A DNA stretch of 50,754 nucleotides, taken from positions 1-50,754 of the forward strand of contig SVSQ01000003.1 in NCBI GenBank assembly GCA_015064245.1, read 5' to 3'. The notes under the pieces are model-generated. The model ran no database searches. It saw nothing but the letters and a program-made list of their open reading frames with translations, and had not been told where the DNA came from. Position 1 is the first letter of the stretch. The number at the start of each line of letters is the position of its first letter. The translations under genes were made by a program, and so were the position numbers. Positions 35,632 to 42,500 of this stretch are shown in pieces. This DNA is from Oscillospiraceae bacterium. GTDB taxonomy: Bacteria; Bacillota; Clostridia; Oscillospirales; CAG-272.

Positions 35632-35781
35632 TTAAGCCACCCCGCATTTTTTCGATATATCTGATCGGAATTCGGGTTTGTGGGTTAGATGATTTCCCCC
35701 GTCAAAGGCTGATCTGACCGAAAGAGCGCAAACGGATCGCAATACTGTTTTACGAGTACAAATCAATAACAATCTTTTCAT
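35632..35781 (-). pseudogene. Possible truncated cassette gene (49 aa, MKRLLLIC...)
   Basis: ATG follows a strong promoter; the ORF runs into a module-G fragment (catctaacccacaaac). Confidence 0.3.
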
Positions 35782-35804: not shown

Positions 35805-35833
35805 ATTATAGCATGAATTTTATTATTTGTAAA
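35805..35833 (-). promoter_or_regulatory. Sigma-A promoter abutting left hairpin ladder
   Basis: TTTACA-N17-TATAAT with extended TG. Confidence 0.75.
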
Positions 35834-35835
35834 GA

Positions 35836-36019
35836 GTGATGTATCGGCTACGCCGAAGTGATGTTATGGCTTCGCCATAGTGATATATTGCTCCTTCGTC
35901 GCAAAGTGATGTGATGTGTTCCTTACTCACGCGCGAAGCGCGCATCACGTTCCGCGTAAGCGGAACACTTAGTTAAAAAAGCCTAATTTGTCTGGTAGAC
36001 AAATTAGGCTTTTTTGTTG
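35836..36019 (-). repeat. Hairpin-ladder element, copy 1 (GTGATG/CATCAC plus terminator)
   Basis: GTGAT at 35836, 35858, 35880, 35906, 35911 separated by small hairpins; CATCAC 35943; aaaaaagcctaatttgtct-ggt-agacaaattaggcttttt. Confidence 0.85.
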
Positions 36020-36113
36020 CCTTAAACGAGCGAAAAGGTGTCTGAACAAGGGTAATTGCGAACAAAAGGTGTCCGGATTTTATTTTTCTGCATCGCGAAA
36101 AATTGGTATTTGT

Positions 36114-36773
36114 TTAAATCGTTTCGGAAATCCATTTCTTCGCCCAAGAAAACAATGTTTCGGACATCGAATTGAAATCTACCGTTCCGCCATTTTTCAA
36201 GATCAAAAAGGTGTCAACGATAATCCTTTCATGATTCGAAACAACATCTCGTAATTCACTTTGATGTTTTACATATTGGCCGATTTGCTTAAAAGCGATA
36301 GCCTGAACAACAAAAGACGCGGATTTATACAATCCTTTCAAAATATCCTCGCTCTTTTCGTGCACCATATTGTGAACGCATCCGTGATAAATATTGCAAG
36401 CACCGATTTTGATTGCTCTGTTAACGGCGGTTTCATCAACAACTTTAACCACCTCATCAAGGCTTCCCTTGATTGGTGTAGTATCGTGGCAAAATTGAAA
36501 AAGATCGGAAGGCTCCCAATCAAGAAGCTCATTCTTTCCTGAAACAAAACCGCAAATCAGTTCTCTGTTGGGAAGGGTATCTAACATTGTATTGTATTTT
36601 TGAATGTCAGTGACGGACAGTTGATTGAGTATAACGACAACATCAATATCGCTTGTTTCGGTTGCTTCACCGCGACCGTAGCTGCCCTGTAATCCCACAA
36701 ACCATACGCGCTCTCCGAAAGTATCGTTTAAGATATTAAGAAATCTATTTATCCAGTCGTTAATATCAATCAT
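36114..36773 (-). CDS. Nucleotidyltransferase (Pol-beta superfamily) domain protein
   Basis: GLQGSYGRGEATETSDIDVVV; start overlaps upstream stop (ATGA); AT-rich codon usage. Confidence 0.88.
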   Translation of the reverse strand: MIDINDWINRFLNILNDTFGERVWFVGLQGSYGRGEATETSDIDVVVILNQLSVTDIQKYNTMLDTLPNRELICGFVSGKNELLDWEPSDLFQFCHDTTPIKGSLDEVVKVVDETAVNRAIKIGACNIYHGCVHNMVHEKSEDILKGLYKSASFVVQAIAFKQIGQYVKHQSELRDVVSNHERIIVDTFLILKNGGTVDFNSMSETLFSWAKKWISETI

Positions 36774-37123
36774 TTGGTGTTCTCCTTTGCTGTTTTGCAA
36801 GATGCAATCAGCATAACTCGCAACGAAGTACATTTGGAGGATAGCGTTTTGAATGTCTGCTCATCGATATATTTTGTGCGATAAAGCAATTCAAGCCAAT
36901 ACCCCGTTTCGCTTGCTTCTTTGAGTGCAATTTCAAATTTTGATATAAAATCCTTAGTACCTTGTGCGTATTGCGCTTCGTGAATATTCGCACCAATCGA
37001 GGTGCCACTTCTGCCAATTTGATTCGCGATAATCGTTTCGTGATTTGCCTTTAAATATTTAACGAGGTTTATGATGTCAACAGAAAAGTCCATTGATAAT
37101 TCTACAAGTTTGTTTTCTTTCAT
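36770..37123 (-). CDS. Four-helix-bundle protein (23S rRNA IVP-like family)
   Basis: NQIGRSGTSIGANIHEAQY, DFISKFEIALKEASETGYWLELL; GGAGG RBS. Confidence 0.92.
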   Translation of the reverse strand: MKENKLVELSMDFSVDIINLVKYLKANHETIIANQIGRSGTSIGANIHEAQYAQGTKDFISKFEIALKEASETGYWLELLYRTKYIDEQTFKTLSSKCTSLRVMLIASCKTAKENTK

Positions 37124-37144
37124 GGCGCACCTCCTGTTGTCGTT

Positions 37145-37173
37145 ATTATATCACAATTTTGGTTGTTTGTCAA
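37145..37173 (-). promoter_or_regulatory. Sigma-A promoter abutting right hairpin ladder
   Basis: TTGACA-N17-TATAAT with extended TG. Confidence 0.85.
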
Positions 37174-37387
37174 ATGATGCATCGTCTGCGGCGATATGAT
37201 GTTTTTCGCTACGCTCAAAATGATGTTGCTCGTTTCACTCGCAATGATGCGATGTTTGCCTCATGTGCCCGCAGGCACACATCATTCGCGTCAGCGTTCA
37301 TCATTAGGCGAAGCCGTCATCATTTGCCGAAGGCAAACATCATTCAAAAAACGCACCTTTGTCGGTAGACAAAAGTGCGTTTTTTGT
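37174..37387 (-). repeat. Hairpin-ladder element, copy 2 (ATGATG x4 / CATCAT x4 plus terminator), fused to tRNA-Tyr 3' end
   Basis: ATGATG 37174, 37196, 37220, 37244; CATCAT 37280, 37299, 37318, 37338; aaaaaacgcacctttgtc-ggta-gacaaaagtgcgtttttt. Confidence 0.88.
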
Positions 37388-37472
37388 TGGTGGGAGCGGG
37401 TGGATTCGGACCACCGAAGTCAGTGACAACAGATTTACAGTCTGCCCCCTTTGGCCGCTCGGGAACGCTCCC
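37388..37472 (-). tRNA. tRNA-Tyr(GTA)
   Basis: gggagcg acceptor, cagactGTAaatctg anticodon arm, long variable arm, CCA end. Confidence 0.96.
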
Positions 37473-37475
37473 GTA

Positions 37476-37550
37476 TGGAGCTGGTGATCGGAGTCGAACC
37501 AACAACCTGCTGATTACAAATCAGCTGCTCTGCCATTGAGCCACACCAGC
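37476..37550 (-). tRNA. tRNA-Thr(TGT)
   Basis: gctggtg acceptor, gctgattTGTaatcagc, GTTCGAC T-loop, CCA end. Confidence 0.96.
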
Positions 37551-37573: not shown

Positions 37574-37602
37574 ATTATAACATATTTTTTTTCGTTTGTC
37601 AA
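37574..37602 (-). promoter_or_regulatory. Sigma-A promoter of tRNA-Thr/Tyr operon
   Basis: TTGACA-N17-TATAAT with extended TG. Confidence 0.85.
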
Positions 37603-39182: not shown

Positions 39183-39205
39183 TCATATTTAATTTTAACG
39201 TATTG

Positions 39206-39382
39206 AAGGGCGACCGATGGTCGTCCTTATTTTAGGTGCGCTGTGAGTTTAGGGCGAACATATACGAGCGCACCCACTCGAAGTTTTCTTTTCGACAATG
39301 TCGAAACTTTTTCCTACGGAAAAAGACCGAAATCTTCGCAGACATTTGGTGTAGATTTATGTTCCCGAAATCCGAGCACACC
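39206..39382 (+). repeat. Mosaic repeat: REP-like hairpin, C tail, D (39279-39338), slot fragment
   Basis: agggcgaccgatggtcgtcct; gcgaacatatacg; D core; aaatccgagcacac. Confidence 0.8.
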
Positions 39383-39577
39383 TATAAATTGTAAAACAAC
39401 CGTTTAATGCAACATAGGTATATAACCTATATAATAAAATATTTAATAAATAATACTTGTAATTTAATAATATTTGTGTTATCATAGTAATTGTGATAAT
39501 ATTCGAAAAATCGATTTCGATATATGCGGTCATGAGTTTAAACGACAAACGAACAGTAAAAGAAAGGGACGGAGGAA

Positions 39578-42500
39578 ATGAAAAACAAAAAAACGACCAA
39601 CGAAAAAACGGGAGTCAAGACCGGAAGATCATCCGGATCGGCGGTAAGTAAAAAAAGCCGCGAGTACTACATCGCGCCGCTTATTCTGCCCGTGGTGGCT
39701 ATCCTTATCGAGACGCTTCTCATATTTGAGAGCGGAGCGGGTATAGTCGGAGAATTTGCGAGCAAGATCATTTTGGGAGTTTGCGGCGCGGCGGGCTACG
39801 TCGTTCCGATAGGACTGCTGGTGATCGCGTTTTTCTACGGTGAGCTCAAGACGAATAAGAGCCTGAAATTCAAATATATAACCCTTGCGTGCTTTGCGGT
39901 GTTCTTTGCCGCGGCGCAGGCGGCTTTCTCCGGCTCGGATCTTGCCAATATCGCCATAGCCGATTATTTTTCAGATACGGCGGTAAACAGAGCAGGCGGA
40001 GTTGTAGGCGGCGGAGCGGCGAAGCTTCTCGCTATGGCTGCTGGCGCTACGGGCGCGGGCGTGATATCCGTGATGCTTTGCGCGATCTCGCTTTCCTTCT
40101 TTATCGGAACGGGCGCTCTCGGCGTATGGAAGTACGTTTTTGAGGCGGTCCGCGAGAGAAGCGCGGTCAGAGCTCCCAAAAAGAAGAAGTCCGTCAAGGA
40201 ACAGCCCGAGGAAAAGCTTCCCGAAACGAAGTCCGAGGCGCCCGAGGTACCAACTCTTGCATTCTCGGCGTCCAAAAGAAGTTACAGCACTACCATCTCC
40301 GACGGCAGCAAGCCCGCAAGGGAGTTCGATTCCGAGAGCGGATACTATGACGCCGATTCCTACCGCGAGGTAAGGAAGACGGCGGTAGTCGAGGAAACGC
40401 CGGAGGAAAAGGCAAGAGCAGCTCAAAAGGCGAAGAACTGGGCGGATTACGGCTCTGATTTTTCGGGCGAGGAGGAAAAGAAAACCGGTTTTTCTTATTC
40501 CGATATTCCCGCGTATCAGCAGGCTGATAATCCCATGACGGCGCAGGATAAGTCGGGCGTTGGAGCTGTGATCCAGACAGGAGCTTCCGCATCCGGCGCG
40601 CCGAGGTATTCTCCTCTTGAATCAAGCTCGGTAAAATCTACAAGTAATAAGCCCGCGGCAAGCGGCGCATCATATAGCAGGGGGACGTCATCAGGCTATA
40701 AATCTCCTAATCAGAAGGAGGAGAAGCCGAGAGCGTATTCGCCCTTTGCAAATCCGCTTATGACCAGAGAAGATTTTCTGAAGGGCAACACTAAGCCCTC
40801 CGCTCCCGAAAAGAAGGAGAGCGAGTCCGAGCCTGTAGCGTATTCCCCCTTTGCAAATCCTTTGATGAGCATGAGAGCTCCTCACACCAGCCATTCCTCT
40901 ACCCCTCAGGCGTATATCGCCAATAACGCGACTGATAAGTACGTTGACAAGAAGGCGGCTGCCGAGGAAGCGAAGGCGGAGGAAGCGCCTAAGGTGGTGG
41001 ATATAACTCCTATAGTTGAGATCAAGCCCGTCGTCAAGACAGAGGCTGAGAGGGAGGATATTCACGATGACGAGCCTCTGGTGATCTTTGGGAAATCCGT
41101 CGGCAACACTCAGATGGACGACGAGGAATGCACCTACGACGACGGTGACGACGACGATACCGCAGACGAGCCCGCTCCCGCATCTCCCTTTTTGTCTATG
41201 ACATCTCCCGCCACCTCGGTGCTCGGAAAGAGCATAGATAAGCCCGGCTCCGAGAACTATCACAGCGAAGAGCCGTTAGAAGAAGAGGGCGGGGACGGAG
41301 AGTATTCCTTCTACACCTATAAGGAGAAGCGTTATCCCAATTACGTTTATCCAAAATTCGACCTTCTCGATCCTCAGAAGCCCAATAACACCATAACGGA
41401 AGAGGATATCATAGAGGTCCAGCAGAAGCTTATGGATAAGCTTTCGAGACTCGGCGTTGACGTCTCCCTTTCGGGTTACAGCATCGGTCCGTCCGTAACG
41501 AGATACGAGCTTACCCCCGGCGATAAGGTCAAGGTAAAGAACATCACCTCTCTTACAGAGGATATAGCGCTCGGACTTGGCTCCGAGGGCGTGCGTATCT
41601 CCAGCGTTCCCGGCAGAGCGGTGGTGGGCGTTGAGGTGCCGAACAAGAAGGTCACCGTCGTTTCGCTCCGTTCGCTCATCGAGAGCAAGGAGTTTATGAG
41701 CGCGAAGAGCAAGATCACGGTCTGCGTAGGTCTTACGGTAACGGGTAAGCCCGTCTATATGGATATCGACGATATGCCCCACGTCCTTATCGCGGGACAG
41801 ACCAAGTCGGGTAAATCCGTGGCTATCAACTGTATGCTCCTCAGCCTTCTGTACCGCGCCTCTCCCGACGAGGTACAGCTCATTCTTATCGACCCAAAGA
41901 GAGTCGAGCTGAACGTCTATTCCAGACTTCCTCACCTCGTGATGCCCGTCATCGACGATCCTCAGAGAGCGGCGGCTGCCCTTCGTTGGGCTGTCAGCGA
42001 GATGGAGCGCCGTTACAAGCTTCTTGACAAGATGTGCGTTCGTAACCGCGAGGAGTATTACGAGCTGAAGGATGAGAATCCCGATTTTGAATATCTGCCT
42101 CAGATAGTTATAGTTATCGACGAGCTTGCCGACCTGATGCTTCAGGTAAGAGAGCACGTCGAGGAGCTTATCAACCGTCTTGCGGCTAAGGCGAGAGCCT
42201 GCGGTATCCATCTGCTGATCGGTACTCAGCGTCCCTCCGTCGACATCATCACGGGACTTATCAAGGCGAACATTCCCGCGAGAATATCCTTTAAAGTCTC
42301 CTCGAACAGCGACTCCCGTATCATTCTCGGAAACGTCGGCGCTGAGCGTCTGCTCGGTAAGGGCGATATGATCTATCATCCTACGGGCGGCTCTCAGAAG
42401 CGTGTTCAGGGCGCGTACGTCGACGGTAAGGAGATCAAGCGTATTATGAACTATATCGTTGATAATAACGGCTCCGCCCGTTTCGATCCGGAGATCATCT

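What the first reader, a model, noticed from the sequence alone, without database searches (positions are those of the whole stretch)
35805..37472. tRNA-anchored cassette array: [terminator, hairpin ladder, promoter, gene] units
Seen on the minus strand: tRNA-Tyr CCA, terminator, ladder, TTGACA-N17-TATAAT, four-helix-bundle and NTase genes; then a second terminator, ladder, TTTACA-N17-TATAAT and a short ORF. Both terminators share a core TTTGTC(T)GGTAGACAAA and end in ttttttgttg on the plus strand, which in copy 2 runs straight into the tRNA 3' end. The cargo is visibly more AT-rich than the core genes. No integrase is in the window. Inference: an integron-like or tRNA-targeted gene-capture system in which each cargo gene arrives with its own insulator and promoter, and the structured repeat serves as the recombination site.
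Basis: partly seen in the sequence, partly recalled or inferred. Interest (0 to 1): 0.85.

Follow-up and report, generated by a model that had tools for sequence, protein, structure and literature searches.

The report
Hairpin-ladder cassettes behind tRNA genes
Behind a tRNA gene of an uncultured gut Clostridia bacterium sits a small foreign two-gene cassette, bracketed by two copies of a terminator, hairpin-array and promoter module that recurs behind many tRNA genes in over a hundred related species and brackets ever-changing genes there.

Summary

The ladder has a known relative. Each ladder is two inverted halves built like Rfam Gut-1 (RF01706), an orphan gut motif. Four paralogous ladders in this genome pass Gut-1's threshold; the window's two do not.

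The genome holds about 21 ladders, 9 of them right behind tRNA or 5S rRNA terminators.

One 27-base word of the module occurs in at least 119 contigs of Oscillospirales-type gut MAGs. Of 122 copies, 68 start just behind the CCA of an intact tRNA, covering 27 anticodons. The gene that follows is PF05635 in 15 of 38 cases and otherwise unique.

Arrays of 2-3 modules bracket AT-rich genes. Hairpin stems covary. Loops are TNC in one half and GNA in the other, so the element has dyad symmetry and probably folds as DNA.

No integron integrase, HUH transposase, IS110, rve or reverse transcriptase was found in this 80%-complete genome.

The cassette reading is supported. The ladder as recombination site, and any integron-like enzyme, are not. 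The few breakpoints seen lie in the terminator tip and at scattered places in ladders.

The parts
37574..37602 (-). Promoter of the tRNA-Thr/tRNA-Tyr operon (TTGACA-17-TATAAT)
   Evidence: 12 of 12 matches
37476..37550 (-). tRNA-Thr(tgt)
37388..37472 (-). tRNA-Tyr(gta) with encoded CCA; anchor of the array
37345..37387 (-). Terminator T2: AC, A-run, 19-pair hairpin and T-run. Its lower stem varies between copies while its tip (TTTGTC-TACC-GACAAA) is conserved.
37174..37344 (.). Ladder 2: 4 units of ATGATG plus hairpin, a centre, then 4 units of hairpin plus CATCAT. It is Gut-1-like but below threshold (21.8 bits).
37145..37173 (-). Promoter P2 (TTGACA-17-TATAAT) abutting the last ladder word
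36770..37123 (-). Four-helix-bundle gene (PF05635 / TIGR02436), 117 aa
36114..36773 (-). Nucleotidyltransferase-fold gene, 219 aa. Its start overlaps the stop of the previous gene. It reaches no curated NCBIfam family.
36018..36076 (-). Cassette 3' segment: two direct copies of GACACCTTTT about 31 nt apart, ending GGCA just before the next terminator. The same segment closes cassettes with unrelated cargo in other genomes.
   Evidence: (D5)
35975..36017 (-). Terminator T1 (perfect 19-pair hairpin, same tip, different lower stem)
35834..35972 (.). Ladder 1 (GTGATG / CATCAC words); Gut-1-like, 29.4 bits
35805..35833 (-). Promoter P1 (TTTACA-17-TATAAT) abutting ladder 1
35632..35781 (-). 49-aa ORF with no family; may not be a gene

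Best explanation
The stretch is one two-gene cassette (PF05635 four-helix-bundle gene plus a nucleotidyltransferase-fold gene) held between two copies of a junction module of about 300 bp and anchored on the CCA end of tRNA-Tyr.

Shown: a module consists of three parts. (i) An intrinsic terminator whose lower stem varies with compensating changes while its tip stays the same. (ii) A ladder: 2-4 units of a 6-nt word RTGAWN plus a short variable hairpin, a centre, then as many units carrying the complementary word. Each ladder amounts to two Gut-1-like halves in inverted orientation. (iii) A sigma-70 promoter that abuts the last word. Cassettes end in a conserved 3' segment just before the next terminator.

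Inferred: the module is portable punctuation. It stops the strong stable-RNA transcription, interposes a spacer that carries no promoter-like site of its own and folds strongly, and restarts transcription for whatever gene lies behind it.

Inferred: because near-identical modules lie behind many tRNA genes in many species, they serve as shared landing pads. Genes bracketed by two modules are gained, lost and swapped by recombination between modules. This is most likely done by general host recombination after DNA uptake, not by an integron-type integrase.

Inferred: the hairpins fold as single-stranded DNA in the same way on both strands, and are not a trans-acting RNA.
For: Module and junction. 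Alignment A1 shows homology beginning just behind CCA of five different tRNAs. Of 122 copies of one module subtype in 119 public contigs, 68 directly follow an intact tRNA (27 anticodons), 12 follow a copy of a tRNA tail and 15 follow a CCA-ended stretch.

Variable cargo. The first ORF behind the module is PF05635-like in 15 of 38 cases and a singleton in the other 23. At tRNA-Tyr, 7 of 22 relatives have ladders, with different genes behind them. Arrays are seen in G011, G036, G102 and G003, and 14 of 80 loci have two or more ladders. Cargo GC is 0.27-0.41 against about 0.5 in the flanks. Among the listed matches, the module and its cargo match relatives at 71-96% identity while the flanking core genes gave no listed DNA match.

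Recombination traces. Hybrid terminators whose two arms belong to different types occur in L127, L147, L002 and L054. Terminators keeping only the right half occur in L087 and L091. Hybrid or truncated ladders occur in G011 and in rows such as L083, L141, L129 and L102 of alignment A2.

No dedicated enzyme. In this genome the only tyrosine recombinase is Xer-like (XerC model 219 bits; integron-integrase model 85 bits against a cut-off of 265). There are no Y1, RVT, IS110 or rve hits. No tRNA-tail repeat lies at the far end of arrays: 0 of 38 loci, and none within 20 kb in the window.

Structure. Of 29 consensus pairs, 18 show double compensatory changes across 71 sequences. Loops are TNC in 153 of 173 first-half hairpins. 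In the second half (181 hairpins) 93 loops are GNA, 33 are GCGNAGC-type and 16 are GNRA. This means dyad symmetry with triloops typical of stable DNA mini-hairpins; that last link is my recalled knowledge.

Position. The ladder lies between a terminator and a promoter, and no promoter-like site points into it on either strand. In 52 of 90 complete ladders a promoter-like site starts 5-6 nt into the last word.
Against: No recombination event was observed directly, and strain-level variants of this locus could not be obtained. Homologous recombination cannot explain how the module first reached the same CA|ACAAAAAA junction behind 27 kinds of tRNA, so some targeted step is missing. The invariant terminator tip beside a freely covarying lower stem suggests recognition by a protein. 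The conserved 3' segment with two direct 10-nt words also looks like a binding site. Most ladders in this genome lie between ordinary-GC genes or contig ends and only 5 of 21 loci adjoin low-GC ORFs (my reading), so the ladder may have a function unrelated to gene exchange. Hybrid terminators are rare, about 4-5 among roughly 140 sites. The DNA-versus-RNA inference rests on loop statistics and consensus promoter scans only. T:G pairs in second-half hairpins on the sense strand (33, against 2 C:A) would also fit folding as RNA. The genome is 80% complete, so an enzyme could be missing.
Confidence: 0.45

Rival explanations
1. A dedicated site-specific gene-capture system. An unidentified recombinase or nuclease would act at the conserved terminator-tip palindrome, the 3' segment or the folded ladder. 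It might be encoded elsewhere, supplied in trans, or be the host Xer. It would insert circular cassettes behind tRNA genes.
For: The terminator tip is invariant while the lower stem covaries. Hybrid terminators join exactly at the tip (L127, L147, L002, L054). Right-half-only terminators begin at the loop/arm border (L087, L091). The same junction lies behind 27 tRNA types. The cassette 3' segment with two direct words is conserved behind unrelated cargo. Twelve copies follow a duplicated tRNA tail, which shows that site-specific events do happen at these tRNA ends.
Against: No integron integrase, Y1/HUH, RT, IS110 or rve was found in an 80%-complete genome that carries about 21 ladders. None lies next to the arrays in the loci inspected by eye. 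Ladder breakpoints are scattered, not fixed. Arrays are short, with at most 3 ladders per locus among 80 loci. One viral contig carried the module word, and no T-L match was found in the phage or plasmid collections.
Confidence: 0.25
2. The ladder is a REP/BIME-like structured extragenic repeat with a housekeeping role at the ends of highly transcribed units, such as buffering supercoiling, binding gyrase or a nucleoid protein, or insulating promoters. On this view the variable genes behind tRNAs are ordinary hot-spot gene flux that has nothing to do with the ladder.
For: About 21 ladders lie in one 2.15-Mb genome. Nine lie behind tRNA or 5S rRNA terminators, and most of the rest lie after ordinary genes of normal GC. 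The motif occurs in 64 of 151 genomes of the order, with up to 28 hits per genome. Architecture is dyad-symmetric with DNA-type triloops. The ladder always lies between a terminator and the next promoter.
Against: This does not explain why terminator, ladder, promoter and PF05635 gene travel together at 84-97% identity behind different tRNAs in different species while core flanks gave no listed match. It also does not explain the conserved cassette 3' segment or the n cargos between n+1 modules. No RAYT was found.
Confidence: 0.2
3. Gut-1 in its original reading: the ladder halves are genes for a small non-coding RNA that acts in trans.
For: Rfam and Weinberg et al. 2010 list Gut-1 as a likely non-coding RNA (passages read). 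Stems covary. Sense-strand T:G pairs occur in second-half hairpins. Contigs of one metatranscriptome run cover parts of related ladders, though DNA carry-over cannot be excluded.
Against: No promoter-like site faces the ladder on either strand, and it starts directly after a terminator T-run. Both strands carry a Gut-1-like half, which an RNA gene does not need. Triloops predominate over tetraloops.
Confidence: 0.05

Closest known systems
Gut-1 RNA motif (Rfam RF01706; Weinberg et al. 2010, Genome Biol 11:R31)
   Same: The build is the same: a repeated 7-nt word (GUGAAAU in the model) separating three short variable hairpins. Four ladders of this genome score 51-63 bits against a threshold of 50. 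Ladders in relatives score up to 91 bits.
   Different: The window's two ladders use other words (ATGATG, GTGATG) and score only 21.8 and 29.4 bits. Here the motif comes as inverted pairs, directly behind terminators of tRNA and 5S genes, and brackets cassettes. None of this is in the passages of the paper I could read. Its Additional file 1 may say more but was closed.
REP / BIME elements of enterobacteria and pseudomonads (description recalled)
   Same: Both are extragenic, lie after gene ends, consist of clusters of small palindromes in opposed orientation joined by short conserved linkers, and run to many copies per genome.
   Different: REP copies share sequence and a 5' GTAG and come with a RAYT gene. 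Here only the 6-nt word and the structure are kept, the stems differ in every unit, and no Y1 transposase was found.
Integron cassette arrays and integrase-less attC clusters (CALINs)
   Same: Both show short arrays of small, diverse, often AT-rich genes separated by structured, imperfectly palindromic repeats whose structure is better conserved than their sequence.
   Different: There is no integron integrase. Each cassette has its own promoter and terminator. The repeat is about 300 bp with many hairpins. The anchor is a tRNA CCA end, not an attI site.
tRNA-targeted genomic islands (tyrosine-integrase type)
   Same: Foreign, low-GC genes sit directly behind a tRNA gene.
   Different: There is no integrase nearby and no repeat of the tRNA tail at the far end (0 of 38 loci; none in the window).
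PF05635 genes inside 23S rRNA intervening sequences, and Avd of diversity-generating retroelements (recalled)
   Same: It is the same protein family, again the only recurrent ORF of a small structured insert attached to a stable-RNA gene.
   Different: Here the gene lies behind tRNA genes rather than inside rRNA helices, and no reverse transcriptase is present in the genome.

Membership tests
Rfam Gut-1 (RF01706) | Covariance-model score at or above the gathering score (50 bits) | tested here: not met
   The window ladders score 29.4 bits (35834-35917, +) and 21.8 bits (37312-37382, -).
Rfam Gut-1 (RF01706) | Paralogous elements of the same build in the same genome pass the threshold | tested here: met
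   C92 63.3, C69 56.0, C4 52.6 and C18 51.2 bits; 26 matches at E<=1. In G102 both strands of each ladder pass the threshold.
Integron / CALIN | Integron integrase (IntI) in the genome or next to the array | tested here: not met
   There is one PF00589 hit, on another contig. It scores 84.8 bits on the integron-integrase model (cut-off 265) and matches XerC best. The genome is 80% complete.
Integron / CALIN | attC sites (R''/L''...L'/R' boxes, GTTRRRY core) | not testable with these tools
   No attC model is on hand. By eye there is no GTTRRRY at the cassette borders. The attC consensus is recalled.
Integron / CALIN | Promoterless cassettes read from one common promoter | tested here: not met
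   Each cassette has its own promoter (12/12 and 11/12 in the window; 52 of 90 elsewhere), and each has its own terminator.
REP/BIME with RAYT | Extragenic clusters of small palindromes in opposed orientation | tested here: met
REP/BIME with RAYT | Copies share sequence, including a fixed 5' tetranucleotide | tested here: not met
   Stems differ in every unit and covary. Only the word RTGAWN is kept.
REP/BIME with RAYT | Y1 (HUH) transposase gene present | tested here: not met
   PF01797 gave 0 hits in this 80%-complete genome.
tRNA-targeted integrative island | Direct repeat of the tRNA 3' end at the distal border | tested here: not met
   0 of 38 loci with at least 1.5 kb downstream; none within 20 kb in the window.
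PF05635 / TIGR02436 four-helix-bundle protein | Score over the curated cut-off | tested here: met
   PF05635 97.3 bits (cut-off 33.8). TIGR02436 105.9 bits (cut-off 24).
Type VII toxin-antitoxin MntA nucleotidyltransferase | NCBIfam MntA score over the cut-off | tested here: not met
   23.6 bits against a cut-off of 60. The two genes also occur apart in relatives.
Aminoglycoside nucleotidyltransferases (ANT) | NCBIfam ANT model over the cut-off | tested here: not met
   The best is ANT(4')-II at 22.5 bits against 350.
MITE | Terminal inverted repeats plus a target-site duplication | tested here: inconclusive
   The two halves share only the 6-nt word, and no duplication is seen at the CCA junction. 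Ends were not mapped for ladders outside tRNA loci.

The most novel reading that the evidence does not exclude
The terminator-ladder-promoter unit together with its most frequent passenger, the PF05635 four-helix-bundle gene, would be a new kind of mobile element that homes to the 3' ends of stable-RNA genes without any canonical recombinase. It would use hairpin-folded single-stranded DNA, or an RNA/cDNA route that joins on to the CCA end, and would pick up other genes between its copies. This would link three orphan facts: the Gut-1 motif, PF05635 genes in 23S rRNA intervening sequences, and Avd as a helper of reverse transcription. Facts that leave it open: PF05635 is present in 56 of 64 Gut-1-positive genomes against 16 of 87 Gut-1-negative ones (my hand tally; related genomes are not independent). 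Ten of the 29 best PF05635 loci have a ladder within 150 nt upstream, with six word types. The junction behind CCA is the same at 27 tRNA types.
Probability: 0.12. Interest if true: 0.9.

Novelty: new variant of a known kind. Interest (0 to 1): 0.68.

Why it matters
First, it gives a genomic setting to Gut-1, an Rfam motif that has stood since 2010 with no function. It also argues that Gut-1 is half of a dyad-symmetric DNA element placed behind stable-RNA terminators rather than a free-standing small RNA.

Second, it describes a recurrent way in which dominant but mostly uncultured gut Clostridia (contigs labelled Oscillospiraceae, Acutalibacteraceae, Faecousia, Ruminococcus and others) package and exchange small accessory genes. 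Each gene comes with its own terminator, spacer and promoter, at tRNA ends, with no visible integrase. If a dedicated mechanism exists, it is undescribed.

Third, it ties the enigmatic PF05635 family once more to stable-RNA genes.

Fourth, naturally insulated terminator-spacer-promoter units are of practical interest for expressing genes in these bacteria.

Tried and rejected
- Public reads. The best runs hold at most 0.46 of the sampled words. Laying contigs of X1, X2, X3 and X20 gave low depth on the flanks (about 3-8) and very high summed depth on ladder and tRNA from other organisms. The joints found (35924>37299, 36014>37399, 37379>36010) have short sides (20-37 letters) at 90% likeness. 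They are best read as other copies of the repeat family, so they give no verdict on circles or empty sites. RNA-run contigs touch related ladders and genes, but DNA carry-over cannot be excluded.
- Strain variants through the neighbouring TPR gene in metagenome contigs. The first try got no answer from the machine. The repeat found only one distant relative at 29% identity.
- Synteny of the right flank. Of six window proteins tested against 21 tRNA-Tyr loci, only one weak match appeared (a GDSL-like protein, 38.5% identity, in G001). The outer border of the variable region therefore stays unmapped.
- Plasmid and phage collections. Only the conserved part of the PF05635 gene matched. One viral contig out of 2.9 million carries the module word.
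- Classical island model. It is rejected because no distal tRNA-tail repeat exists.
- RAYT, RT, IS110 and rve. None was found in this genome.
- Minimum-free-energy folds of single ladders disagree on local hairpins versus one long imperfect hairpin, so I used covariation instead.
- RNAalifold did not recover hairpins 2-4 of the first half because the alignment is poor there.
- Literature. Searches on Gut-1, PF05635 names, tRNA, cassette, hairpin and Clostridia terms, and REP, Firmicutes, tRNA and terminator terms listed no paper describing this arrangement. Passages of PMC8040213 mention palindromic candidates only in general. Supplements were closed.
- Folding of the spacers that sit between tRNAs and duplicated tRNA tails was not done, so the shape of that small insert is left open.
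Full report
WHAT IS THERE. Read on the minus strand, the window carries the following in order.
- A 12/12 promoter at 37602-37574.
- tRNA-Thr and tRNA-Tyr.
- Directly behind the encoded CCA, the letters AC, an A-run, a 19-pair hairpin and a T-run (T2, 37345-37387).
- Ladder 2 (37174-37344). It has four copies of ATGATG, each followed by a 4-7-pair hairpin, a centre, and four hairpins each followed by CATCAT.
- A 12/12 promoter whose -35 box touches the last word.
- A PF05635/TIGR02436 four-helix-bundle gene, and overlapping it by ATGA a 219-aa nucleotidyltransferase-fold gene.
- A 59-nt segment with two direct copies of a 10-nt word (36018-36076).
- A second terminator T1 with the same tip but another lower stem.
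- Ladder 1, with GTGATG/CATCAC words.
- An 11/12 promoter and a 49-aa ORF with no family.

Cargo GC is 0.37-0.41 against about 0.5 around it. It is also far from chance. RNA folds give z-scores of -3.1 to -4.6 and the DNA fold -2.6. The word architecture occurs 12 times in the genome against 0-2 in shuffles. The terminator core occurs three times in 2.15 Mb, twice here and once behind tRNA-Ser.

THE LADDER HAS A NAME. Rfam's Gut-1 model (RF01706) matches ladder 1 weakly (29.4 bits against a threshold of 50). Its consensus is the same design: a repeated word, GUGAAAU, between three variable hairpins. Run over the whole genome, Gut-1 gives 26 matches at E<=1 and 4 above threshold. Together with my word scans, this makes about 21 ladder loci with at least seven word types that fit RTGAWN. 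Within one ladder all words are alike, and the second half carries their exact complement. Each ladder is thus two Gut-1-like halves in inverted orientation. In G102 both strands of each ladder pass the threshold. Weinberg et al. 2010 list Gut-1 as a likely non-coding RNA known from human gut metagenomes only, with no function. I read those passages but could not open the supplement that holds their notes.

WHERE LADDERS LIE. Of 23 tRNA-cluster ends in this genome, 8 are followed by terminator plus ladder; 5 of the other 15 are cut by contig ends within about 120 nt. One more ladder follows 5S rRNA and its terminator. The remaining ladders follow ordinary genes. By flanking-ORF GC, 5 of the 21 loci adjoin low-GC ORFs and the rest lie between ordinary-GC genes or contig ends. 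None of the 14 control genomes has a match.

THE MODULE MOVES AND ITS CARGO CHANGES.
- A 4.2-kb query gave no listed DNA match to the flanking core genes in 40 relatives. The nucleotidyltransferase gene, the PF05635 gene, the ladder and the terminator matched at 71-88% nucleotide identity, often at several places per genome (80 weaker matches were not listed).
- Alignment A1 shows the unit terminator-ladder-promoter-PF05635 beginning just behind CCA of tRNA-Tyr (G000, G024), Leu-CAG (G020, protein 96.6% identical), Met (G014, gene truncated), Thr-GGT (G011) and Arg-ACG (G026).
- Behind tRNA-Tyr itself, 7 of 22 genomes have a ladder, of five word types and with different genes. Fourteen have a plain terminator and one is ambiguous. 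Within the genus, G003, G005, G006 and G011 have a ladder while G001, G007, G008, G010 and G012 do not.
- Arrays exist. In G011: tRNA, module, an unknown ORF of about 130 aa, module. In G036: tRNA-Ser, module, an ORF of about 190 aa, module. In G102: tRNA-Ala, module, a 137-aa ORF (GC 0.29), module, a 66-aa ORF (GC 0.27), module, then core genes.
- Cassettes with unrelated cargo end in the same 3' segment just before the next terminator.

All are gut MAGs labelled Oscillospiraceae, Acutalibacteraceae, Eubacteriales, Clostridia, Faecousia, Ruminococcus, Ructibacterium and the like. The 122 copies break down as follows:
- 68 directly follow an intact tRNA, covering 27 anticodons.
- 12 follow a copy of at least 14 nt of the tail of a tRNA lying 140-250 nt upstream.
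- 15 follow a CCA-ended stretch with no tRNA called.
- 6 follow the cassette 3' segment by a strict rule. Several of the 15 classed as "other" are variants of it.
- 6 were too near an end to judge.

In the first 80 loci the first ORF behind the ladder could be called in 38 cases. Fifteen are PF05635-like, behind at least 8 tRNA types, and 23 are singletons. Fourteen of the 80 loci hold two or three ladders.

STRUCTURE AND STRAND. Across 71 sequences, RNAalifold finds 29 pairs, 18 of them with double compensatory changes. The lower stem of the terminator covaries freely (for example CG 39 against GC 25 at one pair), whereas its tip is invariant. Among 354 ladder hairpins the loops are TNC in 153 of 173 first-half hairpins. 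In the second half, of 181 hairpins, 93 loops are GNA, 33 are GCGNAGC-type and 16 are GNRA. So GNA loops always lie on the strand that carries the NWTCAY word, and the whole element has two-fold symmetry. GNA triloops closed by C:G are, from memory, the hallmark of very stable DNA mini-hairpins, while structured RNAs favour tetraloops. No promoter-like site faces the ladder on either strand, and it begins right after the terminator's T-run. I therefore favour folding as single-stranded DNA over a free RNA. This is inference, and the sense-strand T:G pairs in the second half (33 against 2 C:A) keep RNA folding possible.

HOW CARGO IS EXCHANGED. Traces of crossing-over exist.
- Four terminators have arms of two different types joined at the tip (L127, L147, L002, L054, among roughly 140 sites).
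- Two keep only the right arm (L087, L091).
- In three copies the 3' segment is fused to the T-run (L096, L103, L123).
- Several ladders switch word type or break off part-way (G011; L083, L141, L129, L102 and others).

No enzyme is in sight. The one tyrosine recombinase is Xer-like. There are two large serine recombinases on other contigs. There are no Y1, RVT, IS110 or rve hits. The genome is 80% complete. Arrays are not bounded by a distal tRNA-tail repeat (0 of 38).

My best reading, at 0.45, is exchange by general recombination between shared modules, which at the same time serve as terminator-spacer-promoter punctuation. A dedicated site-specific system acting at the invariant tip or the 3' segment stands at 0.25. 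It would better explain how the module reached the identical junction behind 27 tRNA types. A housekeeping REP/BIME-like role with unrelated gene flux stands at 0.2, and a trans-acting RNA at 0.05.

THE CARGO. The PF05635 gene is a clear family member. The nucleotidyltransferase reaches no curated family: MntA 23.6 bits against 60, ANT(4')-II 22.5 against 350, and PADLOC only partial matches. The two genes occur separately in relatives, so an obligate toxin-antitoxin pair is unlikely. PF05635 and Gut-1 co-occur: 56 of 64 Gut-1-positive genomes against 16 of 87 negative ones (hand tally; kin are not independent). Ten of the 29 best PF05635 loci have a ladder within 150 nt upstream. This is the basis of the bolder reading given in the section on the most novel reading.

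LIMITS. No strain-level variants, circles or clean expression data could be obtained. The right border of the variable region is unmapped. Counts rest on one module subtype found through an exact 27-mer, so other subtypes are under-sampled. Searches of the paper library found no description of this arrangement, but supplements were closed and subscription journals are not covered.

Noticed in passing
L058, L063, L073, L078, L082, L094, L105, L126, L129, L130, L162, L164; L043:4330-4500: In 12 of 122 module copies the module follows a 14-24-nt copy of the tail of a tRNA that lies intact 140-250 nt upstream. Between them are the tRNA's own plain terminator and a spacer that begins with an inverted copy of the T-arm. 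Four of the spacers share one hairpin. No Rfam family matches at gathering score. This looks like a tiny insert or structured element specific to tRNA ends. Its fold was not computed.
   Followed up: partly
L004-L010; window 36096-36110: Homologues of the nucleotidyltransferase gene (69-76% aa) in six relatives lie in unrelated places with no ladder. Each is bracketed by a direct repeat of about 13 nt, just before the ribosome-binding site and just after the stop. A similar word follows the window's gene. This may be an independent mini-cassette.
   Followed up: partly
G000 C10:1-300, C52:3620-3965, C115:1-215, C4:7080-7310, also C3, C13, C18, C90, C91: A GTGATA-word subfamily of ladders is not linked to tRNAs. 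It carries its own conserved flank of about 100 nt with a terminator, plus a closing hairpin made of the word itself. Many copies sit at contig ends.
   Followed up: no
G000 C59:1-340: A ladder lies directly behind the end of a 5S rRNA gene and its terminator, so the link is to stable-RNA operons in general, not only to tRNAs.
   Followed up: no
L077:2139-4350: A second full tRNA-Tyr copy sits inside an array, between two modules.
   Followed up: no
L013:650-1175 (G014): Behind tRNA-Met the module's PF05635 gene is reduced to its last 37 codons, directly behind the intact promoter and start region, and is followed by another ladder.
   Followed up: no
window 37353-37380 and alignment A2 columns 15/54: The commonest terminator type keeps a T:G pair in its lower stem on the tRNA-sense strand (33 of 71 sequences). 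It is therefore a better hairpin as sense RNA than on the other strand.
   Followed up: no
window 37190-37265 versus 37330-37344 (minus-strand centre of ladder 2); alignment A2 columns 205-236: The nearly invariant centre of the ATGATG-type ladder repeats the right arm of the first hairpin plus the complement of the word. The first unit can therefore pair either locally or with the centre.
   Followed up: no
window 39200-39600: A GC trough (0.35-0.40) lies upstream of the FtsK-like gene. It was not examined.
   Followed up: no
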